Below, piece after piece: positions 1,231-60,380 of a stretch of DNA of 64,000 nt. The translations under genes and the position numbers were made by a program. Position 1 is the first letter of the stretch; each line of letters begins with the position of its first letter. Below the pieces are notes generated by a model. It saw only the letters and a program-made list of their open reading frames with translations. It made no database searches and was not told where the DNA came from. The stretch lies in NCBI GenBank assembly GCA_951406725.2, contig OX597815.1:8122001-8186000 (forward strand). The letters are read 5' to 3'. The DNA comes from Octopus vulgaris (taxonomy: Eukaryota).

Positions 1231-2062
1231 CCCGCCGATTTTTAAAATTTTGTAATTTATTGCGTTTTTAAATTTTAGAAGCTATTTTTTTCAAGAATTC
1301 TATTTTTGAATCATTTTGGAATTTCTTTTTTTCTAGTTAATTTTAGTTAATTTTTGCTTATTTTCAGATCATTAAAATGGAATGTCAAGTTAAGAAAAAC
1401 GAGCATTTTCGACACCTCCTTCTTTTTGCTTTTAATCAAGGTTCTAAGGCCGCAAAAGCTGCTCGCGACATTTGTGCTGTGTATGAAGAGGGTGCCATAG
1501 CTGAAAGAACCAAGTTCAAAAATGGAAATTTTGACCTCAAAGACGCACTTCGTTCTGGTCGTCCAGTTGAGTTCGATGAAGAGCGATTAAACCAACTTTT
1601 GCGCGAAAATTCTCGTCAAACGACAAGGGAATGCTCCCACACTGCTATAGAGAAGCATTTTCACTCGATGAGAAAGGTTCAGAAGTATGGAGCATGGGTT
1701 CCGCATGCTTTAAGTGACAACAACAAAAATCAACGAGCCACAATCTCCGCTGGTTTGCTTGCTCGCCACTGCTCAACTCATGGACACAAGCAACGATTTC
1801 TTTACCGAATCGTTACTGGCGACGAAAAATGTTGCCTGTACATCAATATGAACAAGCATTATCCTCATAAACAAGCGACACCGTGCGTGAAACAAGATCT
1901 TCATCCGCGTAAAATGATGTTGTGCGTATGGTGAGACTGGGAAGGGATTATCCATTGCGAATTGCTTGAACGGAACCAAATGGTCAACGCGGGAAGTGCT
2001 GCCACACCCGCCGTACTCTCCTGATTTGGCACCAACGGATTTCCACCTCTTTCAATCTCTTT
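1229..2062 (+). mobile_element. Mariner (Tc1/mariner) transposon remnant, internally deleted
   Basis: ORF 1377-1934 has the HTH region (HFRHLLLFAFNQG...RSGRP), WVPHAL and RIVTGDEK. After a stop, DWEGIIHCELL is followed by a jump to VLPHPPYSPDLAPTDFHLF, so the central catalytic segment is missing. Confidence 0.93.
1377..1934 (+). pseudogene. mariner transposase pseudogene (N-terminal part)
   Basis: WVPHEL-like and TGDE motifs; small deletions, premature stop, YSPDLAP motif downstream. Confidence 0.9.
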
Positions 2063-5941: not shown

Positions 5942-6037
5942 TTTTTTCTTATTTTTATTTTCCTAAAATTTTCGTCAAACAATTGTAAAGGTTGCAAGAC
6001 GCAACGAAAATTTTAGGAAAATAAAAATAAGAAAAAA
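5942..6037. repeat. about 34-bp inverted repeat (hairpin)
   Basis: TTTTTTCTTATTTTTATTTTCCTAAAATTTTCGT ... ACGAAAATTTTAGGAAAATAAAAATAAGAAAAAA. Confidence 0.85.
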
Positions 6038-6300
6038 TTATAAAATGCTAAAATAATTTTATCATGAAGAACATTTTAGTACCGGTTTCATCCTTTGCGA
6101 CTTTTTCAACATAGAGTAAAGCATGAAAAACAATTAAATCGTAGAAAACATGAATGAAATGTTTTAAAAAATATTTCCATAGTTTTCAAACGCAAGGGAC
6201 ATTTTCCTTTTTCCTGTGTGTCTGTCAGTCTCTCTCTGTTTTACTCTTGTGAGAGCTTGGTAGCAGGTAGCACGTAGTAGCAGTCCTAAAATTTGATATG

Positions 6301-6694
6301 ATGGAAAAATTATTCTGAACGCTTGAGACAGATTATGAGAGAGACAGGATAAGCAGTCTGATCTTGGTGAAGGTAACAGTTGGAAAGATGACTTCCCATC
6401 CTTTTCCAAGTAAGTTTTTTCTTAATAATTATGATGCGCACTCTTCACCTTTACTGTTTCTCCTCTGTCTATCTCTCTCCCTCTCTTGTTCTTCATCCTT
6501 TCTGTTTTTCTCTCCACCCTTCCCTATTCTTCTCCTCTCCCCTTCATCGTTCCCTCTCTCTTACTCCTCCTCCTCCTCCTCCTCCTCCTCGACTCTCTCG
6601 TCACTGAAAACGCTATCTTCACCAAGACAAGACCGCTTATCCTGTCTCTCTCATAATAAGATGTCTCCTCAAGCGTTCACAATAATTTTTCCAT
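6301..6694. repeat. foldback: about 75-bp imperfect inverted arms around a pyrimidine-rich spacer
   Basis: 6301-6372 is approximately the reverse complement of 6617-6694. Confidence 0.8.
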
Positions 6695-7148
6695 GGTCTT
6701 GGCTTAACAACCCTCATCGTTTGTTTTTACTGTGTTATTCTCTTTGTTCTGTCTTTTACTGTTTTACTGTTTTGTGTTGTTTCTACTGTCCTGTTCTTGT
6801 TACCATTTTTACTCCGCAAAAAATCCCAAATTTTATTTAATTTGCTTTGCAGGAAGGACTGTTTCAACGAAGTCACATCTTGTCCTTACCTTCGCAACGC
6901 GGAGTAGACGAAACGGGGAAAACTGAAGACGGGGAATATTCCTTGTGTTGTATGTCTTGTACTCTGTTCTCTCGTTGTAGGAAAAAAAGTTCGTTTCCAT
7001 GTTTTTGTTTTTGTTTTTGTGTTTTCGTTTCACATTGCGTTCAAAGTTATTTTGAAGTCCTGTACCCATATATGCATGTATATATACATATAGATGTAAG
7101 TATGTACATATATGTATAAATGCATATATTTATATATTATTCATATTA

Positions 7149-7255
<107 letters not shown>

Positions 7256-7414
7256 ATTGGCAGGGCTGGCCTGCTAGGTAGCCGGCCAGAATGCTAGAAA
7301 AAGATCATCAACGATCAAACTACAAGGGAAATTCTCTAGAGGAAGAATTCAGCGAACACCAGAACCAAATTTGGCGGGCAGGACATATGAAAAATTAAAT
7401 AAAAAACACACTTA

Positions 7415-7490
7415 AATGCATACCTCGGTTTCGGTCTTAACAAAAGAATTACTTGCATAATTCAAGTGTCCGTGACTTCTTCAGTACATT
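7415..7490 (-). ncRNA. type I hammerhead ribozyme motif (inverted arm copy)
   Basis: Reverse complement of the 7835-7910 motif. Confidence 0.8.
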
Positions 7491-7834
7491 CGGTCCTCGA
7501 GATGCAAACTGAAAGACTAACCCCAGCTCTCTGTGTCAAGACAGACACGTGCTTAGTCTTACTGATTACATCGGGAATAAAATTTCAAATGTCTTGGTTC
7601 CGGCGCGCTAAGAGACTCCTGAAGCGAAGGGCTGCAGTGAATAATTCACTGCGGGTAATGCTTACAACTAGGGAACGTATTTATTCACTGCAGCCCTTCG
7701 CTTCAGGAGTCTCTTAGCGCGCCGGAACCAAGACATTTGAAATTTTATTCCCGATGTAATCAGTAAGACTAAGCACGTGTCTGTCTTGACACAGAGAGCT
7801 GGGGTTAGTCTTGCGGTTTGCATCTCGAGGACCG

Positions 7835-7910
7835 AATGTACTGAAGAAGTCACGGACACTTGAATTATGCAAGTAATTCTTTTGTTAAGACCGAAACCGA
7901 GGTATGCATT
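7835..7910 (+). ncRNA. type I hammerhead ribozyme motif, copy 1
   Basis: Stem I AAUGUA/UGCAUU; core CUGAAGA; extended stem II (GUC/GAC, GACA/UGUU, GAAUUA/UAAUUC); GAAA; stem III ACC-GA-GGU; GUA cleavage triplet, cut after 7904. Confidence 0.85.
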
Positions 7911-8380
7911 TAAGTCTGTTTTTTATTTAATTTTTCATATGTCCTGCCCGCCAAATTTGGTTCTGGTGTTCGCTGAATTCTTCCTCTAGAGAATTTCCCT
8001 TGTAGTTTGATCGTTGATGATCTTTTTCTAGCATTCTGGCCGGCTACCTAGCAGGCCAGCCCTGCCAATATACACATATATTTGAATTTTCTCTGACTCC
8101 TCAGATTTTTTGAATGCTGGACTACTGGTTTTAAATTGATATTAAAATTAATATTAATTTATCTCCCTCAATTTTTAAACATTTAAATAAATACGTTCCC
8201 TAGTTGTAAGCATTACCCGCAGTGAATTATTCACTGCAGCCCTTCGCTTCAGGAGTCTCTTAGCGCGCCGGAACCAAGACATTTGAAATTTTATTCCCGA
8301 TGTAATCAGTAAGACTAAGCACGTGTCTGTCTTGACACAGAGAGCTGGGGTTAGTCTTGCGGTTTGCATCTCGAGGACCG

Positions 8381-8456
8381 AATGTACTGAAGAAGTCACG
8401 GACACTTGAATTATGCAAGTAATTCTTTTGTTAAGACCGAAACCGAGGTATGCATT
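8381..8456 (+). ncRNA. type I hammerhead ribozyme motif, copy 2
   Basis: Identical to 7835-7910 (+546). Confidence 0.85.
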
Positions 8457-8926
8457 TAAGTCTGTTTTTTATTTAATTTTTCATATGTCCTGCCCGCCAA
8501 ATTTGGTTCTGGTGTTCGCTGAATTCTTCCTCTAGAGAATTTCCCTTGTAGTTTGATCGTTGATGATCTTTTTCTAGCATTCTGGCCGGCTACCTAGCAG
8601 GCCAGCCCTGCCAATATACACATATATTTGAATTTTCTCTGACTCCTCAGATTTTTTGAATGCTGGACTACTGGTTTTAAATTGATATTAAAATTAATAT
8701 TAATTTATCTCCCTCAATTTTTAAACATTTAAATAAATACGTTCCCTAGTTGTAAGCATTACCCGCAGTGAATTATTCACTGCAGCCCTTCGCTTCAGGA
8801 GTCTCTTAGCGCGCCGGAACCAAGACATTTGAAATTTTATTCCCGATGTAATCAGTAAGACTAAGCACGTGTCTGTCTTGACACAGAGAGCTGGGGTTAG
8901 TCTTGCGGTTTGCATCTCGAGGACCG

Positions 8927-9002
8927 AATGTACTGAAGAAGTCACGGACACTTGAATTATGCAAGTAATTCTTTTGTTAAGACCGAAACCGAGGTATGCA
9001 TT
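8927..9002 (+). ncRNA. type I hammerhead ribozyme motif, copy 3
   Basis: Identical to 7835-7910 (+1092). Confidence 0.85.
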
Positions 9003-9472
9003 TAAGTCTGTTTTTTATTTAATTTTTCATATGTCCTGCCCGCCAAATTTGGTTCTGGTGTTCGCTGAATTCTTCCTCTAGAGAATTTCCCTTGTAGTTT
9101 GATCGTTGATGATCTTTTTCTAGCATTCTGGCCGGCTACCTAGCAGGCCAGCCCTGCCAATATACACATATATTTGAATTTTCTCTGACTCCTCAGATTT
9201 TTTGAATGCTGGACTACTGGTTTTAAATTGATATTAAAATTAATATTAATTTATCTCCCTCAATTTTTAAACATTTAAATAAATACGTTCCCTAGTTGTA
9301 AGCATTACCCGCAGTGAATTATTCACTGCAGCCCTTCGCTTCAGGAGTCTCTTAGCGCGCCGGAACCAAGACATTTGAAATTTTATTCCCGATGTAATCA
9401 GTAAGACTAAGCACGTGTCTGTCTTGACACAGAGAGCTGGGGTTAGTCTTGCGGTTTGCATCTCGAGGACCG

Positions 9473-9548
9473 AATGTACTGAAGAAGTCACGGACACTTG
9501 AATTATGCAAGTAATTCTTTTGTTAAGACCGAAACCGAGGTATGCATT
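9473..9548 (+). ncRNA. type I hammerhead ribozyme motif, copy 4
   Basis: Identical to 7835-7910 (+1638). Confidence 0.85.
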
Positions 9549-9824
9549 TAAGTCTGTTTTTTATTTAATTTTTCATATGTCCTGCCCGCCAAATTTGGTT
9601 CTGGTGTTCGCTGAATTCTTCCTCTAGAGAATTTCCCTTGTAGTTTGATCGTTGATGATCTTTTTCTAGCATTCTGGCCGGCTACCTAGCAGGCCAGCCC
9701 TGCCAATATACACATATATTTGAATTTTCTCTGACTCCTCAGATTTTTTGAATGCTGGACTACTGGTTTTAAATTGATATTAAAATTAATATTAATTTAT
9801 CTCCCTCAATTTTTAAATATTTTA

Positions 9825-10201
<377 letters not shown>

Positions 10202-13699: not shown

Positions 13700-14311
13700 A
13701 ATTTCTTTTCTACTCTAGGCGCAGAGCCCAAACTTTAGGGGGGAGGGGGCCAATCGATTAGATCGACCCCAGTAAGCAACTGGTACTTAATTTATCGACT
13801 CCAAAAGGATGAAAAGCAAAGTCCACCTCGGTAGAATTTGAACTCAGAATGTAAAGACAGACGAAATATCGATAAGCATTTCGCCCGGCGTGCTCAACGT
13901 TTCTTATTTCTTTATTGCTCACAAGGGGCTAAACACAGAGGGGACAAACAAGGACAGACATAGGTATTAAGTCGATTATATCGACCCCAGTGTGTAGCTG
14001 GTACTTAATTTATCGGCCCCGAAGGGATGAAAGGCAAAGTTGAACTCAGAACGTAGCGGCAGAGGAAATACTTATTTCTATTTCTTTACTACCCACAAGG
14101 GGCTAAACACAGAGGGGACAAACAAGGACAGACAAAGGGATTAAGTCCATTAGATCGACCCCAGTGCGTAACTGGTACTTAATTTATCGACCCCGAAAGG
14201 ATGAAAGGCAAAGTCGACCTCGGCGGAATTTGAACTCAGAACGTAGCGGCAGACGAAATACCACCAAACATTTCGTCAGGCGTGCTAAAGCTTCTGCCAG
14301 CTCGCCGCCTT
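13700..14311 (-). mobile_element. SINE family C, three tandem or partial copies
   Basis: Head AAGGCGGCGAGCTGGCAGAA, B-box GAGTTCAAATTC; core GCCTTTCATCCTTTCGGGGTCGATAAATTAAGTACCAG repeated three times (resembles the Nin domain; tentative). Confidence 0.82.
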
Positions 14312-17825: not shown

Positions 17826-17977
17826 ATATATTGGTAAAACGGTAAGATAACAAAAGAAAGAAAGAGACCTCAATATTATGTAAATAGAGGAATAGCTCTT
17901 TTGTCTAAATAGCGGTCAATAATACAGTAATTTCCATTTGCATAACGGTCATTTTTCATAGCGTTTTTCCGATGGCC

Positions 17978-18040
17978 GGATAACTGAAGAGATGGTGGTG
18001 TGGATTTCCACCTCGGCATCCGAAACTCAGAGTTTTATCT
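17978..18040 (+). ncRNA. type I hammerhead ribozyme motif
   Basis: Stem I GGAUAA/UUAUCU; CUGAAGA; stem II GAUG/CAUC; GAAA; palindromic stem III ACUC-A-GAGU; GUU triplet. Confidence 0.75.
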
Positions 18041-18071
18041 TGGCTACCGAATAATTGTCACATATTACATC

Positions 18072-18141
<70 letters not shown>

Positions 18142-21884: not shown

Positions 21885-21922
<38 letters not shown>

Positions 21923-21924
<2 letters not shown>

Positions 21925-22304
21925 AGAAAAAAGCAACAAAAATGGATCAATATTTCGGTACAATTGTTTCGTACGAAGACCACCTTTATTAAGGCTGCAA
22001 ATATTGCAGCAAATACACGTGACCCGTACTCATCAGCCGAAAAAACATCTGAGTTCTCAAAACATCTAAGGGGGTGAGGCTACACTCATGAAACGTGTAT
22101 TTGCTGCAATATTTGCAGCCTTAATAAAGGTGGTCTTCGTACGAAACAATTGTACCGAAATATTGATCCATTTTTGTTGCTTTTTCTTGCTTATAATCAC
22201 CCCGCATTATCTTATGGTTAATACCATATAGATTTCTGGTGCATCTAAGTTAAGTACCTCATTCATGTGAATTCAACAGAACTCACTTGAATCTTAATTA
22301 CTTT

Positions 22305-27038: not shown

Positions 27039-30000
27039 ATTATATCCGAACTTCCCAGGCGGTTTTGGACCAAACCGCCCGGATGCTAGAAAATCCTTGA
27101 AACTTCCCAGGAGGTTTTCGACCAGATTTCCAGGAAAATAGAAAATCCTCGGAACTTTCCAGGAACTTTTCGACCAAATTTAACGACAGTGAGAAAATCC
27201 TCGGAATTTCCCAGGAAATTTTCGACCAAACTTCCCGGAAGATAGAAAAATCCTTAAAATTTCCAAGGAAGTTTTCGACCAAATTTCCCGGAAGTTAGAC
27301 AATCATCGGCACTTTCCAGGCGGTTTTCGACCAAACTTCCCGGAAGTTAGATTATATCTGAACTTCCCAGAGGGGTTTCGACCAAACATCCTGGATGCTA
27401 AAAAATCCTTGGAACTTACCAGGAAGTTTTCGACCAAATTTCTCGGAAGATCGAAAATCCTCAGAACGTCCCAGGAACTTTTCGACCAAGTTTCATGACA
27501 GTTAGAAAATCCTCGGGATTTCCAAGGCAGTTTTCGACCAAATTTCCCGAAAGTTAGAAATCATCGGAACTTTCCAGGTAATTTTCGACCAAACTTCCAG
27601 GGCGTTAGAAAATCCTTGGAATTTCCCAGGATATTTTCGACCAAATTTTACGACAGTTAGAAAATCCTCGGAATTTCGCAGGAAATTTTCGACCAAACTT
27701 CCCAGAAGTTACACAATTATCGGCACTTCCCAGGAAGTTTTCGAACAAATTTCCCGGAGGTTAGAAAATCCTCGGATCTTCCCAATAAGTTTTCGACCAA
27801 ATTTATTGGGAGATCGAAAAATCCCCAGAATTCCCAGGAAATTTTCGACCAAACTTCCCGGACGTTAGAAAATCCTCGAAAGTTTTCGATCAGATTTCCC
27901 AAAAGTTAGAAAATCGTCGGAACTTTCCAGGCGGCTTTCGACCAAACTTGCCGGAAATTAGATAATATCGAAACTTCCCAGACGGTTTTTGACCAAACTT
28001 CCCGGATGCTAGAAAATGCTTGAAACTTCCCAGGAAGTTTTCGACTAAATTTCTCAGAAGTTCGAAAATTCTCGAAATTCCCATGAAGTTTTCGACCAAA
28101 TTACACGACAGCTACAAAATCCTCGTATTTTCCCAGGAAATTTTCGACCAGACTTCTCGGAATTAGAAAATCCTTGGAATTTCCAAGGCAGTTTTCGACC
28201 AAATTTCCTGGAAGTTACACAATCATCGGCACTTCCCAGGAAGTTTCCGACCAAATTTCCCGGAGGTTAGAAAATCCTCGGATCTTCCCAATAAGTTTTC
28301 GACCAAATTTCCTGAAAGATCGAAAATACCCGTAATTTCCCGGGAAATTTTCGACCAAACTTCCCGGACTTTAGAAAATCATCGGAATTTCCCTGGAAGT
28401 TTTCGATCGAATTTGCCAAAGGTTAGGAAATCATCGGAACTTTCCAGGAGATTTTCACCAAACTTCCCAGAAGTTTCAAAATCCTCGGAATTTCCCAGGA
28501 GATTTTCGACCAAACTTCCCGGGCGTTAGAAAATCCTGGAAATTTTCGACCAAACTTCGCGGTTGTTAGAATATCCTTGGTATTTCCAAGGCAGTTTTCG
28601 ACCAAATTTTCCGGAATATAGAAAATTATCGGAACTACCCAGGAAGTTTTCGACGAAATTTTACGAAAAAGTCCTCGGAATTTCCCATGAAATTTTCGAC
28701 CAAACTTCCCGGAATTTCCATGGCAGTTTTCGACCAAATTTCCCGGAAGTTAGACAATCATCGGCACTTTCAAGGCGGTTTTCGACCAAACTTCCCGGAA
28801 GTTAGATTATATCCGATCTTCCCAGACGGGTTTGGACCAAAATTCCTGAAGAATCCTTGGAACTTCCCAGGAAGATTTCGACCAAATTTCTCGGAAGATC
28901 GAAAATCTTCAGAACGTCCCAGGAACTTTTCGAACAAGTTTCATGACAGTTAGAAAATTCTCGGAATTTCCAAGGCAGTTTTCGACCAAATTTCCCGAAA
29001 GTTAGAAATCCTCGAAACTTTCCACGAAATTTTCTACCAAACTTCCAGGGCGTTAGAAAATCCTTCGAATTTCCCAGGATATTTTCGACCAAATTTTAGG
29101 ACAGTGAGAAAATCCGCGGAATTTCTCAGGAAATTTTCGACCAAACTTCCCTCTGGAAATTTTCGACCAGACTTCCCGGAATTAGAAAATCCTTGGAAAT
29201 TCCAAGGCAGTTTTCGACAAAATTTCCTTACACAATCATCGGTACTTCCCAGGAAGTTTTTGAACAAATTTCCCGGAGGTTAGAAAATCCTCGGATCTTC
29301 CCAATAAGTTTTCGACCAAATTTATTGGAATATCGAAAATCCCCGGAATTTCCCAGGTAATGTTCGACCAAACTTCCCGGACTTTAGAAAATCCTCGGAA
29401 GTTTTCGATCAGATTTCCCAAAAGTTAGAAAATCGTCGGAACTTTCCAGGCGGCTTTTGACCAAACTTGCCGCAAATTAGATAATATCCGAACTTCCTAG
29501 ACGGTTTTTGACCAAACTTCCCGGATGCTAGAAAATGCTTGAAACTTCCCAGGAAGTTTTCGACCAAATTTCTCAGAAGTTCGAAAATCCTCGGAACTTT
29601 CCATGAAGTTTTCGACCAAATTTCACGACAGCTAGAAAATCCTCGTATTTTCCCAGACTTCCCGGACTTCCCAGACTTTCGACCAGACTTCCCGGAATTA
29701 GAAAATCCTTGGAATTTCCAAGGCAGTTTTCGACCAAATTTCCTTACACAATCATCGGCACTTCCCAGGAAGTTTTTGATCAAATTTCCCGGAGGTTAGA
29801 AAATCCTCGGATCTTCCCAATAAGTTTTCGACCAAATTTCCTGGAAGATCGAAAATACCCGGAATTTCCCGGGAAATTTTCGACCAAACTTCCCGGACGT
29901 TAGAAAATCCTCGGGATTTCACTGGAAGTTTTCGATCGAATTTCCCGGAGGTTAGAAAATCCTCGGATCTTCCCAATAAGTTTTCAACCAAATTTCCCGG

Positions 30001-31041
30001 AGACCGAAAATTCTCGAAATTTCGACCAAACTTCCCGGAAGTTAGAACATCTTTGGAATTTCCAAGGCAGTTTTCGACCAAATTTCCCGAAAGTAAGAAA
30101 ATCCTCGGAACTTTCCAGGCTGTTTTGGACCAAACTTCCCGGAAAATAGAAAATCCTCGGAATTTCTCGGGAAATTTTCGACCAAACTTCCCGGGCGTTA
30201 GAAAATCCTCAGAATTGCCCAGGAAGTTTTCGACTAAATTTCCCGAAAGTTAGAAGATCCTCGGAACTTCGATTAAACTTCCCGGAACTTTGAAAATTCT
30301 CGGTATTTCCCGGGAATTTTCGACCAAACTTTTCGGCAGTTAGAAAATCCTTGGGATTTCCCAGGCTGTTTTCGACAAAATTTCCCATGATGTTTTCGAC
30401 CTAATTTCCTGGAGTTTAGAAAATCCTCGTATCTTTCCAGTAAGTTTTCGACCAAATTTCTCGGAAGATTGAAAATCCTCGGAATTTCCCATGGAGTTTT
30501 CAACCAAATATCCCGGAAGTTAGACTATCATCGGCTCTTCCCAGGAAGTCTTCGACCAATGTTTCCAGGAGGTTAGAGGATCATCAGATCTTCCCAGTAA
30601 GTGTTCGATCAAATTTCCCAGAAGATAGAAAATCCTCGGAACTTCCTAGGAACTTTTCGATTAATTTTCCAGGAAGTTAGAAAATTATTGGAACTTCCCA
30701 GAAAGTTTTCGAACAAATTCCGGGAAGTTAGAAAATCCTCGGCACATCCCGGGCAGTTTTCGAACAAAACTTCTTTGAAGTTAGACAATCCTCGAATCTT
30801 CCCAGGAAGTTTTCGTCCAAATTTCCCGGGAGTTAGAAATCGTGGGAATTTCCCATGCAGTATTCGACGAAATTTCCAGGAAGTTAGAAAATCCTCGCAT
30901 ATTCCCAGGATGTTTTCGACCAAATTTCACGGAAGACTGAAAATCCTCGGAACTTCACAAGAAATTATCAACCAATTTTCGTGGAAGTTAGAAACTCCTG
31001 GGAAATTCCCAGTCAGTTATCGATCAAACTTCCCGGAAGTT
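27039..31041. repeat. satellite array, about 52-bp monomer with higher-order repeats
   Basis: Consensus approximately GTTAGAAAATCCTCGGAATTTCCCAGGAAGTTTTCGACCAAATTTCCCGGAA; variant blocks recur at about 0.51 kb and about 1.5 kb spacing. Confidence 0.93.
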
Positions 31042-31131
31042 ATATATATATACATATATATATATATGATGCGGGCAGCGGCATCGAACTTCCAGGTTGA
31101 TCTCCCTTTTTGATCAAGTGCCACGTATCAG

Positions 31132-38911: not shown

Positions 38912-39304
38912 TTTAAACATAGAGGGGACAAACAAGGACAGACAAACGGATTAAGCCGATTATATCGGCCCCAGTGCGTAACTGGTACTTATTTAATCGA
39001 TCCCGAAAGGATGAAAGGCAAAGTCGACCTCGGCGGAATTTGAACTCACAACGTAACGCAGACGAAATACCTATTTCTTTACTACCCACAAGGGGCTAAA
39101 CATAGAGGGAACGAACAAGGACAGACAAACGGATTAAGTCGATTACATCGACCCCAGAGTTCAACTGGTACTTAATTTATCGACCCCGAAAGGATGAAAG
39201 GCAAAGTCGACCTCGGCGGAATTTGAACTCAGAACGTATACACAGACGAAATACCGTTAAGCATCTCGCCTGGCGTGCTAACGATTCTGCCAGCTCGCCG
39301 CCTT
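38912..39304 (-). mobile_element. SINE family C with internal tandem duplication
   Basis: Matches 14075-14311. Confidence 0.85.
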
Positions 39305-46625: not shown

Positions 46626-48083
46626 CAGATCGGCAGATTCGTTCATTCCTTGATAGATAGACCTGATTATTTAACGTTGTTGTTATCCCTACGCCAAAAG
46701 TAGTTCCCTTATATAATATTTCTCGACTAAATAAATGCTGTTGTTACATTATATACTTCACTACAAGCAGCTTTAGTTTACACAATCGGTTTTACAGTCG
46801 CTACTTCTACTCTGCCACCATTACGAGCAAAAATTAAATGATAGTTTACGACGAATAAGGATTTCCTCTGCTTCTAACTCTATCTACTATATAAATTTTT
46901 ACCCCAAGGCCTCTAACCTTCCCATTGGTCCCACCTAGCTCAATACCTCAATGCTTTCTAAGTCTGACTCCGTGTCAACTGCTTTGGTGTTTGTTCTTAT
47001 GTAATTGACTCGAGTTACATCTTCCTTCGCTTCGGTTTTCCAAACATCATTTTGGCACCACCTCGGTATATCGAACTTTCTTTGGCTCCGTGTCAACGCT
47101 TTGGCTTTCGTTTGTTGCCCAGAGTTATCTCTTACTTCAATACATTCTCTCATAATGCGATATGAACAATTATAAATCATTTCGTTTTCATCTCTTTGTT
47201 GACTCTGATCTTCTTCTGTGTAAGTCCGTCTCTTTAATCTGATTCACAATTCTCGTGTTAAGTCTCTTTTATCTAATAGTTGACATTTTCCTGGAAGCTC
47301 TTCTCGCTCTTCTCATCCTGTCTGTTCTAACTGACATTTGTTACCTTTCTTTCATCTAACAATTACTAAGTTTCCCCTTCTTCGTTCAATGTTTTCTATC
47401 TAACTTACTACTCTACAACAAAGTGTCTCTTGCTCAGATAATCTCTTCTCTTCTATTCTTCTTTTTTTCTTTTTTCTTACATTGCTGTTTTAGTGCTAGC
47501 TCACCTGTGATTAAACAGATGTAAGAAAACGAACGATAGTCAGTCGAACCACTTGATGCGATCTACAAACCCGTTGTTTCCGCCTCGCGAAGCACCACAT
47601 TGTGCAATCCAACGAGTGCAGTAGTTTATCGAATGAACTGTAATAATGCAGCTAACGTCATCCTTTCTAACAGCAGATGCACACTGACATGCAACGGGTT
47701 TATTACATGTGGTACAACGTAACAGCCCGGGTATGTTATACTCTCTCAACCATCCACTCTATTTTCTATATTTCTGTTGATGGTGATTCGGTTTTTGCTG
47801 TAATTCTTTAACCTCAGGTCGCTACTGCTTGAATGCAACTATAAGCAAAGGTATTCCAGCCACGACCATCCAATATCTTATAATGCCTAGGACTGAACTG
47901 ATCAATGGGTCTTATTTTAAGGGATAAGGTGTAAGTTGAGGAAATTTGGCTGCTGTTTTTAGTACATGAATGATCCTGTATAGGTCTCCTACCACAATGG
48001 AGTAATGGGGATATTGATACTGGGGATATGTGTGTGTATGCTTCAATGTCTTTGAGGTTGAATGAGATGTATAGTGTTGTTAT

Positions 48084-48144
<61 letters not shown>

Positions 48145-48203
48145 CATATATATCCTTAAATTCTTTAAAATGTTTTAGCCCGAAGGCCATACACATACAT
48201 ATT

Positions 48204-48235
<32 letters not shown>

Positions 48236-48268
48236 TGTATGTATGTATGTATGTATGTATGTATGTAT

Positions 48269-49311
<1,043 letters not shown>

Positions 49312-49739
49312 AAGAGAGATTCATTATTATCATTATCTGGGTAATAACTTCAAAACGTGCATTGAAAAAATTCTATACGGTTATCGGTTACCATATGATA
49401 TTATGCCATCATACAACAAGGTTACTCCTGGAACTGGATAAACATGTGGAACTCAGCTAAATTCATGCAAGAAGAAGATGGAATAAACAGGTTTTAATTG
49501 AAAATTAGAACATTTGTTTCTGTGCAATGGTAACAGCTGTAACTTGCTGAGTTTTCAGTCTCATAGTATTACATAAGTTATTTTGCTGAAATAATTACCT
49601 AAAATAACCATTAAGATCCAGCACCAACTGTATACAGGTACTTCATCAGGTAGGTCGCTTTTAAAGCACTGATGGATCACGATTAAATTCTTATGTGTGT
49701 GTGTGTGTGGATGCGTGTATGTGTGTGTATGCGTACATA

Positions 49740-55139: not shown

Positions 55140-55915
55140 ATGTTGTTCTCACTTTCGAGTATGTATGTAATATACTCGTTTCTTTCTTTACTTTTCTGCC
55201 TGTGTTGTCTGAATGATACGTTCAAAGGCTGTTTGGGCTGACCTTATTCCTGTACCGCCATCTTTTCCTTTCACACAGCTTCTATCGGTGTCTCTGTTGA
55301 TACACAACGATAAGAGAGAATCCACTATGTGGACGCTCTTATGCTAGATATAGATCCGCAAAGGGAATCCACCACCAAAGAATTGTTCTCAAGAAATAAT
55401 TCAACACACCAAGAACGTAAGCGAGCAGGACAAATGAAAAATAACGAAAATGAAAAATGTCTCTGTTGATGTAGAAGTTGCCGGTGGTGATCTGTACATT
55501 TTTCTAATTTTGATGTCCAGGCTGCGGTTCTTGTCAAGTGTCCAGTCCAGTATTCCAAATGTTAGTACTAGCATTGGCACTGCAAAAGCATTGTGAGATA
55601 TGGTCTTGTTAAACGCAAACAACCGCGAGTTCCATATTTCCCAGAGTCTACAGAGGTACACTTCTGCTATTCTGGCTTTAGTCAAAGCACCAACGTATGC
55701 CACATTCTTATCGATTACGAGATACTTGTAAATTTCCAACATTAGAGATAGAAGAAACAGACAAGACACGCCATTGATGTACATGTTCTCTGTCTGGTCG
55801 ACAATCTTTCCTCGGTTGACTTTCATGTAATCAACATTTGTCTCGCCCACACTTCATCCCCATGTCTCGTAAGAATGTTGTAACAAGGTCTAATTGTCTC
55901 TTGACGCTGTTCATG
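55140..55915 (-). pseudogene. R4/Dong-like LINE RT/thumb fragment
   Basis: ORF 55401-55850: IYKYLVID...EIWNSRLFAFNKTISHNAFAVPMLVLTFGILDWT...LDIKIRK. Confidence 0.82.
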
Positions 55916-58354: not shown

Positions 58355-60380
58355 TCTCTTATTATAAAAGGCAGATTTTATCTGCCTCCCTTTGTCTCTT
58401 ATAGAAATCTACAATATAGGATTTCTTCAATTACAATTTACCTAGCATTTTTAAGAGTAGAATGCATCGCGTCATGCCAGGTCCAGTTTTTAAAATTTAA
58501 ACTCCAATTAAGCAAAATTTACAGAAAACTCACATTGTGGTGTCTAAGTCAAATGCTTTTCTTAGTGTGGCCTACACCACACGCACACGCACACACACAG
58601 TGTGCAACGATTAAAGTGAAAGTAATTCACTTTTTGTAGTGAGTGACTCTTTCACTCTGCCACTTCCTCTTTACACACATGGACACGCAAATATATAAAT
58701 AAAATTGTAAGCTAACGTGTGTGTGTGCGTGTGTGTGAGTGTGTGTGTGTGTGTGCGTGTGTGTGTGTGTGAGGGTGCGTGTGTGTGTGTGTGTGCGTGT
58801 GCGTGAGTGTGTGACAGGAAAGTTTTTTAGGACGAATATAAGACCTATATCCAAGTAGCAGAAAGATCGCCCAAAAGTGTATATAGATATTTAAATGTAT
58901 TTATATATTCATCTATGCACACATGTATGTATAACGTGTGTGTATATATTTCCATAGAGGTAACCATTCACTCCATACAAAATCTTTTAGGACGAAAATA
59001 AGATCTAAAGTTATCTCTAAGAAACAGAAAGATCGCCCAAAAGTGTATATAGATATTTAAATGTATTTATATATTCATCTATACACAGATGTATGTATAA
59101 TGTGCGTGTATATATTTCCATAGAGGTAACCATTCAATCCATACAAAGTTTTTTAGGACGAAAATATTTATATATAAAAGAAAGGTTGTGTGTCTGTCTA
59201 CTCCGATTTAGATTCCTAACTACTCCCACATTTTGCGATGCAGTTTAACCAAAACCGGGTATCTTATAGTCGTGATTCATATCGAGCCCTTCTGGGTATT
59301 AGCGCGCGTCTACGATGAGTCTATGATTTTACAAATAATTTACCATCATTTTTTTCCATTTTAATGCATATTTTTTTAGATAAAGGGAAGTAACTCTCAA
59401 ACTTCACACCAATATGCGTGCTCATATGCGACGTAATATCACATCAGCAGCATTTCCTCACACCCTCCTTGCACTTGGCGAAGGCAAAATACCAGGGGAT
59501 GAAAATGGTAATATTGCCATCGATTCCATTTGTACCATTGTTAAGACGCCTTCTGATCTCAGAGATGCAGTGTTCCCAGATCTACAAGCTAATTATCAGA
59601 ATATGGATTGGATTGGAAAAAAGGCTATACTGGCCCCGAGGAATAAAACTGTTCACCATATTAATGATGAAATGCTAAAACTCATTCCTGGGGAAGTCTA
59701 TGTGTATCAGTCTATCGATACAACTCCTGACCCAGAGGACGTCATCAACTATCCAATAGAGGTACTCAATTCCTTTGAGCACCCCGGACTACCACCACAC
59801 TTTCTCAAACTTAAAGTTGGTGCCCCTATAATGCTCATCAGAAATTTGGTTCCCCCAAAACAATGCAATGGCACACGTTTGATCGTTAAGTCCTTATCTC
59901 CCACCGTAAGCTTATATCAATATTTGTCTGAATAATCATCATAATTCAGTGCAATCATTAACAGTACTTTCAAGCAATTCAGCCCCGAGCAACGCCGGGC
60001 AATTCTGCTAGCATATGTATAAAGCTGAAGTTGTCTGTGTGTGGCAGGTTTGGTAGCCTTCGACTAACACTATCTCCTCCGAGACCCTGCGGCGCAAGTT
60101 GACCAAAATTGAGAGTATGATAGAAGGGTTGCTCTTCCTTCCGTAGAAGAAAAAATTCAAATCGGACCATGTTAACACCAAAAAGGTGCTTTTTTTTTAT
60201 GAAAATCCCTATTTTTTACGATTTTTTGACTGCTGTGTCGCCACTTTTCGGTGTATTTCAACCAGAAAAATGTTCACTTAAAGAGAATAATATGCTACAT
60301 AAAGCAAAATATTTAATTTTCAAAAATTCCAATTCTTAAGGGTCGAAACAAAGCCGAGCAACGCAGGGCGATACTGCTAG
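58355..60380 (+). mobile_element. composite Helitron with a helicase fragment and two 3' termini (60011, 60380)
   Basis: 5' TC matching 11345; internal second 5' module at about 59166; hairpin plus CTAG twice. Confidence 0.9.
59414..59935 (+). pseudogene. Helitron RepHel Pif1-like helicase fragment (173 aa open frame)
   Basis: NMRA, LLALGEG, KAILAPRNKTVHHIN, EVLNS...GLPPH.LKLKVGAPIMLIRNL...CNGTRLIV. Confidence 0.92.

What the first reader, a model, noticed from the sequence alone, without database searches (positions are those of the whole stretch)
9755..9817. Two otherwise dissimilar ribozyme units share the same 3' terminal motif
Seen: the 546 unit ends CTGGACTACTGGTTTTAAATTGATATTAAAATTAATATTAATTTATCTCCCTCAATTTTTAAA-(TA)n. 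The 565 unit (minus strand of about 48321-48383) ends CTGAACACTTGGTGAAATTGATTAATAATTAATTAATTAGTTTTACCCTCAATTGTTGAAAT-(TA)n. Both insertions end just after CCCTCAATT, about 275-300 nt downstream of the HHR cut rather than at it. Inferred: a conserved internal RT recognition or priming signal on a circular template.
Basis: partly seen in the sequence, partly recalled or inferred. Interest (0 to 1): 0.7.

Follow-up and report, generated by a model that had tools for sequence, protein, structure and literature searches.

The report
Shared copying-start hairpin of Penelope-type retrozymes
Two dissimilar ribozyme-bearing repeats end in the same hairpin motif, which also ends thousands of copies from several related protein-free families in this animal genome and likely marks where a borrowed Penelope-type enzyme starts copying their RNA, although no enzyme-coding partner with the motif was found.

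Summary
Observation confirmed. The two ends align better than all 1,000 dinucleotide shuffles; the rest of the units does not beat chance. The conserved part is not CCCTCAATT but a T-rich CY(R)RAC..CT(T)GG lead, an AT-rich hairpin closed by GG/CC, then CCCT. It ends thousands of copies of a superfamily of 450-591-nt hammerhead repeats (groups A-D) next to (TA)n. That is the known Penelope-like-element (PLE) 'tail' with internal reverse-transcription starts (Frangieh 2024), and coding Hydra-type PLEs here show the same footprint. Earlier scan notes already describe this two-site footprint for other retrozymes of this genome. New here is the cross-family conserved signal. No protein-coding PLE sampled (four active families plus older ones) carries it, so the partner is unidentified; the circular template is untested. 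New variant of a known kind; interest 0.45.

The parts
9755..9822 (+). Terminal motif of family A (distal end site, site 1): CTGGAC-TA-CTGG lead, hairpin, CCCT, AT-rich spacer
9765..9804 (+). Predicted AT-rich hairpin closed by GG/CC (13-bp upper stem); more stable than 298 of 300 shuffles of its interior
9696..9719 (+). Proximal end site (site 2) in the last A unit, AGCCCT anchor 105 nt before the site-1 CCCT; used by inverted arms
9473..9548 (+). Type I hammerhead motif of the last A unit (core CTGAAGA...GAAA, long stem II with A.C at its base, 2-bp helix III, predicted cut after 9542); copies at 7841, 8387, 8933 (+) and 7484 (-)
   Evidence: activity untested
7681..9822 (+). Direct arm of array A, 3.9 tandem 546-nt units with no difference in 2,976 compared positions; internal motif copies at 8117, 8663, 9209
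7249..7685 (-). Inverted arm of array A; outer end at site 2; differs from the direct arm at 3 unit positions
9823..9908 (.). (TA)n target flank, right of array A
7068..7255 (.). (TA)n/(TG)n target flank, left of array A
48318..48383 (-). Terminal motif of family B (site 1); second copy at 48883-48948
48337..48373 (-). Predicted 16-bp hairpin closed by GG/CC; more stable than 300 of 300 interior shuffles
48420..48438 (-). Site 2 of family B (AGCCCT anchor, about 95-98 nt before the site-1 CCCT)
48612..48668 (-). Type I hammerhead motif of B (core CTGATGA...GAAA, U.U at the base of stem II, palindromic helix III loop, predicted cut after 48618)
   Evidence: activity untested
48318..48967 (-). 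Direct arm of array B, 1.15 units of 565 nt
48968..49196 (+). Inverted arm of array B; outer end at site 2
48081..48321 (.). (TA)n/(TACA)n target flank beyond site 1 of B
49192..49320 (.). (TA)n-rich flank beyond the inverted arm of B

Best explanation
The motif is the conserved far end of a roughly 100-nt 'tail' shared by a superfamily of non-coding hammerhead repeats, and it likely acts as the RNA stem-loop at which a borrowed Penelope-like (PLE) reverse transcriptase binds and starts copying into a cut (TA)n target. Shown: the sequence match, the hairpin potential in all groups, the fixed ends at two sites about 92-129 nt apart, the one-site-per-arm rule in inverted insertions, and the same rule in coding Hydra-type PLEs of this genome. 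Inferred: the element RNA (circle or uncleaved multimer) is bound by a PLE protein, probably a dimer; the endonuclease cuts both strands of (TA)n; one 3' end primes about 10-20 nt beyond the hairpin, the other about 100 nt upstream; both cDNAs run through the ribozyme site and join back to back. The motif stays conserved by selection on RT recognition while the rest of the unit drifts; A and B probably descend from one ancestor (A links to C along the whole unit; links from C or D to B outside the tail are weak).
For: Significance of the A-B match. Pattern counts versus reversed-pattern controls: 3,181 vs 36, 608 vs 6, 3,489 vs 83, 3,287 vs 47; the sets overlap in part. Of the first 120 pattern hits, 81 meet a microsatellite within 32 nt of CCCT, 32 run on into further element sequence (mostly the next tandem unit), 7 lack CCCT (hits are not all independent insertions). 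Ribozyme-selected A sample: 18 insertions, 17 with an end at site 1; in 13 inverted ones the other end is at site 2 in 7, 30-70 nt further upstream in 5, inside the hairpin in 1. B sample (motif-selected): 11 of 12 resolved inverted insertions have the second end 67-121 nt before CCCT, 1 has both ends at site 1. Hairpin: GG/CC closing in 19 of 19 variants (partly by the way they were cut out), 18 of 19 more stable than at least 294 of 300 interior shuffles, with variable length and G-U/A-U/G-C exchange at pair 4. Between A and B units the motif beats chance while the rest does not. Coding Hydra-type families: 12 of 12 and 9 of 9 inverted insertions end at two fixed sites, one per arm. In vitro precedent: internal initiation at two sites in a stem-loop, both target strands cut and extended (PMC11167929).
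Against: No ORF-bearing PLE carries the motif: four active families (717-aa and 899-aa Hydra-type, 781-aa Neptune-type, a 1,312-aa family) and several older ones were checked, and none of 50 further variant-motif loci had a PLE ORF upstream. The two-site footprint does not single out a clade (the Neptune-type family also shows a tail in 2 inverted copies). Site-2 hairpins are weak (z -2.9 to +0.3). Several cross-group motif pairs are not significant alone (e.g. A1-D1 178 of 300). No double-sided compensatory change was seen in the four basal pairs. No binding, priming or cleavage assay.
Confidence: 0.7

Rival explanations
1. The ends are fixed by the RNA's 3' end or by A/T micro-homology with the (TA)n target, and the motif is conserved for another job (transcription termination or processing, promoter, RNA folding or ligation of the circle), not for RT recognition.
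For: Both end sites are followed by AT-rich runs that blend into (TA)n. The motif is a hairpin next to a T-rich stretch. No partner shares it.
Against: Other AT-rich stretches of the unit, including the hairpin itself, are rarely ends (1 of 31 ends). A single RNA end cannot give two sites used one per arm; coding PLEs show the same rule and in vitro starts are internal (PMC11167929).
Confidence: 0.15
2. The motif is simply the inherited pseudo-LTR tail of one autonomous PLE family not yet found; all these repeats are its deletion derivatives and an intact partner with the same tail exists in this genome.
For: Retrozymes match PLE pseudo-LTRs in Xenopus (10.64898/2026.07.22.740005). Family A is young (2.7% between insertions), so an active RT exists. 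Each protein search scored only 150 of 6,000-9,000 candidates, so families were missed.
Against: No motif hit in 1.35 Mb of fetched loci was joined to a PLE ORF except one rearranged locus, nor in 50 more. This rival is compatible with the best explanation and differs only on whether the partner shares the motif.
Confidence: 0.4
3. The A-B match is chance or convergence of AT-rich hairpins in unrelated elements.
For: The stretch is about 75% AT; one local-shuffle in 1,000 reached the score; nhmmer did not report the A tail with a B-only model.
Against: 0 of 1000 and 0 of 5000 shuffles, 0 of 1000 by hmmsearch; group C is intermediate between A and B in the motif; same position relative to ribozyme and to both end sites in all groups.
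Confidence: 0.04

Closest known systems
Metazoan non-LTR retrozymes (Cervera and de la Pena 2020, PMC7229834; Li, Clavereau and Pollet 2026, 10.64898/2026.07.22.740005)
   Same: Non-coding tandem units, each with a type I hammerhead, dispersed in many copies; PLE mobilisation proposed; U.U at the base of stem II in B as in axolotl HHR_Amex2.
   Different: Units are 450-591 nt (170-400 nt in the 2020 paper; 51-972 in the preprint). Neither text, in the parts read, describes a conserved terminal signal, fixed ends or two-armed insertions. Expression and circles are not shown here.
PLE 'tail' and internal RT initiation (Poseidon_Ac; Frangieh et al. 2024, PMC11167929; Craig et al. 2021, PMC8557442)
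   Same: Two internal start sites downstream of the hammerhead, tail present at one end only, inverted 5'-truncated arm, AT-rich target, start near a stem-loop.
   Different: Tail about 100 nt rather than 30-40 nt; AT-rich rather than AC-rich stem-loop; element is non-coding; signal conserved across deeply diverged families; one-site-per-arm rule quantified.
Hydra-clade PLEs (Craig et al. 2021)
   Same: (TA)n target, hammerhead near the 3' end; two Hydra-type families here show the same two-site inverted footprint.
   Different: Their tails are 65 and about 157 nt and do not match the motif.
Stringent LINE/SINE shared 3' stem-loops (e.g. eel UnaL2/UnaSINE1; recalled, no call)
   Same: A conserved 3' stem-loop recruits the RT in trans.
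   Different: Here the signal is internal to a tandem or circular unit, comes with a second start site, and no partner sharing it has been found.

Membership tests
Non-LTR retrozyme | Tandem non-coding units, each with a type I hammerhead motif | tested here: met
   cores intact by sequence in every full unit; no coding ORF in the units
Non-LTR retrozyme | Dispersed multi-copy family | tested here: met
   332 exact A hammerhead 24-mers vs 0 control; thousands of B- and C-type motif hits
Non-LTR retrozyme | Ribozyme self-cleaves | not testable with these tools
   Core nucleotides present; 10.1-11.1 mismatch and 2-bp helix III; free MFE of the A motif does not give the hammerhead fold; Rfam scan listed no hammerhead among the 150 of 228 rows shown
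Non-LTR retrozyme | Expressed as monomeric circular RNA | tested here: inconclusive
   No RNA holder on record; only contigs could be laid; within-insertion identity fits a circle or a homogeneous multimer
PLE-mobilised element | Partial tandem plus inverted 5'-truncated arm | tested here: met
   both window arrays; 13 of 18 A insertions
PLE-mobilised element | Tail at one end only (two fixed ends) | tested here: met
PLE-mobilised element | Insertion into (TA)n microsatellites | tested here: met
PLE-mobilised element | 3' end shared with an autonomous PLE | tested here: inconclusive
   not found in the families sampled; sampling incomplete
Autonomous PLE | RT plus GIY-YIG ORF | tested here: not met
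   no ORF in either array or upstream of motif copies

The most novel reading that the evidence does not exclude
An old lineage of viroid-like ribozyme circles keeps its own RT-recruiting hairpin, shared with no autonomous element in the genome, and a dimeric PLE enzyme reads two start sites 100 nt apart on one circle to prime from both strands of a single cut.
Probability: 0.2. Interest if true: 0.75.

Novelty: new variant of a known kind. Interest (0 to 1): 0.45.

Why it matters
How PLE reverse transcriptases choose their RNA, and how animal retrozymes get copied, is known from one in vitro system and from co-occurrence. A 70-nt motif that survives across families whose other sequence no longer aligns, and that sits at thousands of insertion ends, is a ready-made minimal substrate to test RT recognition and two-strand priming, and to fish out the partner among four active PLE families of this genome.

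Tried and rejected
Template-switch evidence for a partner: a Hydra-type RT piece joined directly to a C-type unit (L291, L329) looked like an RNA-level switch, but the two loci are one segmental duplicate and a third paralogue (L327) holds the same PLE copy complete with the same upstream flank, so the join is a later DNA-level event; rejected. A 12-nt match between a Hydra-type tail and group D (0 of 100 shuffles, 1 of 40 comparisons, different register) was not accepted. L063-type PLE ends containing CCCTCAATT did not score with the covariance model. Weak model hits (16-23 bits) antisense in Hydra-type 3' UTRs are AT noise. Rfam gave only microsatellite-driven miRNA matches in the rows shown. 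No RNA holder listed; contigs laid cannot show ends or circles. Site-2 hairpin as a second copy of the signal: inconclusive. The genome could not be scanned by profile or covariance model, only by patterns, DNA and proteins, so counts are lower bounds and the partner search is partial. Motif strings were absent from or matched by chance in the Craig 2021 supplement (line breaks can hide matches). The supplements of the 2026 preprint were not seen and may hold retrozyme consensus ends.

Full report
Observation. Both quoted ends are in the window. Array A is a direct arm of 3.9 units of 546 nt (7681-9822, +) preceded by an inverted arm (7249-7685); array B is a direct arm of 1.15 units of 565 nt (48967-48318, -) with an inverted arm (48968-49196). 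Each full unit has a type I hammerhead core; predicted cuts lie about 276-280 and 297-300 nt before the terminal (TA)n. A profile of B-type tails scores the A tail at 17.2 bits, above 1000 of 1000 shuffles by hmmsearch; nhmmer reported nothing for it.

What is conserved. Searches of the 2.8-Gb genome and neighbours found in fetched loci show at least four groups of hammerhead tandem repeats with this end: A (546 nt; second subfamily about 544), B (about 545-591), C (493-535), D (450). An alignment of eight full monomers is collinear and its most conserved block outside the ribozyme core is the motif. A and C are homologous along the whole unit (0 of 60 shuffles), as are the B subfamilies; between A/C and B the motif beats chance in most but not all pairs (A1-B1 0 of 300, A1-D1 178 of 300, C2-B2b 36 of 300) and the rest mostly does not. 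The invariant parts are a T-rich lead CY(R)RAC..CT(T)GG and CCCT; CCCTCAATT itself varies. Between GG and CC lies a 30-50-nt AT-rich hairpin, more stable than at least 294 of 300 interior shuffles in 18 of 19 variants (26 of 300 for the other); the variants were cut at GG and CCCT, so the closing pairs are given by the cut, and no double-sided change was seen in the four basal pairs.

Ends. Of the first 30 centre hits of each of four patterns (120 in all, not all independent), 81 meet a microsatellite within 32 nt of CCCT, 32 continue into more element, 7 lack CCCT. To avoid selecting on the end, A copies were picked by an exact ribozyme 24-mer (332 hits, 0 control). The first 30 are 18 insertions, the window's included: 5 single-armed (4 end at the motif, 1 at a second site) and 13 two-armed; all 13 have one end at unit 528-559 (CCCT is 531-534), and the other end at 442-447 in 7, 380-419 in 5, 512 in 1 (BLAST ends run a few bases into TA). 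In the motif-selected B sample 11 of 12 resolved two-armed insertions have the second end 67-121 nt before CCCT and 1 has both at the motif; C copies behave alike. The anchors of the two sites are 92-129 nt apart in eight families. Within A insertions tandem units differ by 0.4% and arms by 0.8%, against 2.7% between insertions (28 insertions), so both arms come from one template lineage; this does not tell a circle from a uniform multimer.

Partner search. Active coding PLEs found: a 717-aa and an 899-aa family, Hydra-type by eye against the Hydra alignment in the Craig 2021 supplement, a 781-aa family with Pfam RVT_1 and C-terminal GIY-YIG ('Neptune-type' is my recalled label), and a 1,312-aa family (clade not determined), plus older fragments. 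Both Hydra-type families follow the same rule: 12 of 12 inverted insertions end 294 and 359 nt after the stop (6 of these were picked as inverted pairs), 9 of 9 end at 726-740 and 892-900. None carries the motif. Of 370 motif hits in 1.35 Mb of loci, all with a PLE ORF upstream were separated from it by (TA)n except one junction, which proved to be a later rearrangement of an existing PLE copy. Fifty more variant-motif loci had no ORF upstream. Each protein search scored 150 of several thousand candidates, so this is not proof of absence.

Mechanism. Shown: fixed two-site ends, one per arm, in (TA)n; a conserved hairpin motif 7-25 nt before the distal end. Inferred, from PMC11167929 (abstract, main text and start of methods read), where a PLE protein cut both strands of AT-rich DNA and began reverse transcription internally at two sites in a stem-loop matching the genomic tail: a PLE protein binds the repeat RNA at this hairpin, primes from both ends of the cut at the two sites, and copies through the ribozyme site on a circle or uncleaved multimer.

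Comparison. The elements meet the sequence criteria of non-LTR retrozymes (PMC7229834: passages and Discussion read; 10.64898/2026.07.22.740005: parts 1-3 of 5 read, supplements not seen) and the structural criteria of PLE insertions (PMC8557442: passages and supplement searches). Cleavage and circles are untested. Five literature searches listed no paper describing a terminal signal shared by retrozyme families; the library lacks most subscription journals. Earlier AI notes of this scan describe the two-armed, two-site footprint for other retrozyme families of this genome and a start hairpin in another genome; my two-site reading was noted before those look-ups.

Verdict. Real, well above chance, and best read as the RT start signal at the end of a long PLE-type tail. 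The principle is known; the cross-family conserved motif without an identified partner is the new part. New variant of a known kind, interest 0.45.

Noticed in passing
window about 17830-18075: Small two-armed insertion of the 3' end of the 717-aa Hydra-type PLE with an intact CTGAAGA hammerhead core at 17984 (most genomic copies seen read CCGAAGA); arms end at that family's two sites.
   Followed up: partly
window about 21890-22300 (-), core at 22036: Another hammerhead element in a two-armed insertion in (TA)n, ending about 35 nt after the cut; similar family in L069.
   Followed up: no
window about 55320-55450 (-): A roughly 130-nt piece of a C-type unit sits inside a broken LINE-like reading frame, without (TA)n flanks.
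   Followed up: partly
L291, L329, L327 (G000:C1): A C-type retrozyme end is joined through 4 nt of micro-homology into the RT of an existing Hydra-type copy; a paralogue keeps the complete copy. Suggests insertion with a large target deletion or later rearrangement.
   Followed up: yes
L396, L397 (G000:C1, C5): Very young, abundant PLE family with a 1,312-aa frame, an Asn-rich insert, 4.6-kb tandem copies and ends that fall inside the start of the frame, as in Poseidon_Ac; not picked up by the Pfam GIY-YIG search rows shown.
   Followed up: partly
L179-L182: The 781-aa family carries a hammerhead-like motif with an altered core (TTGATAA in place of CTGANGA) about 85 nt before its end, and a second ORF upstream.
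   Followed up: no
L209:2186-2845: 591-nt B-group unit with a CCGATGA hammerhead core and a very long stem II.
   Followed up: partly
window 27044-31042: 4-kb degenerate satellite with a 52-nt unit.
   Followed up: no
window 13900-14221 and 38914-39255: Tandem dimers of a common 174-183-nt SINE-like repeat.
   Followed up: no
window about 1347-1930 (+) and 59384-59930 (+): Reading frames resembling a mariner-type transposase and a helitron-type helicase (labels recalled, not tested).
   Followed up: no
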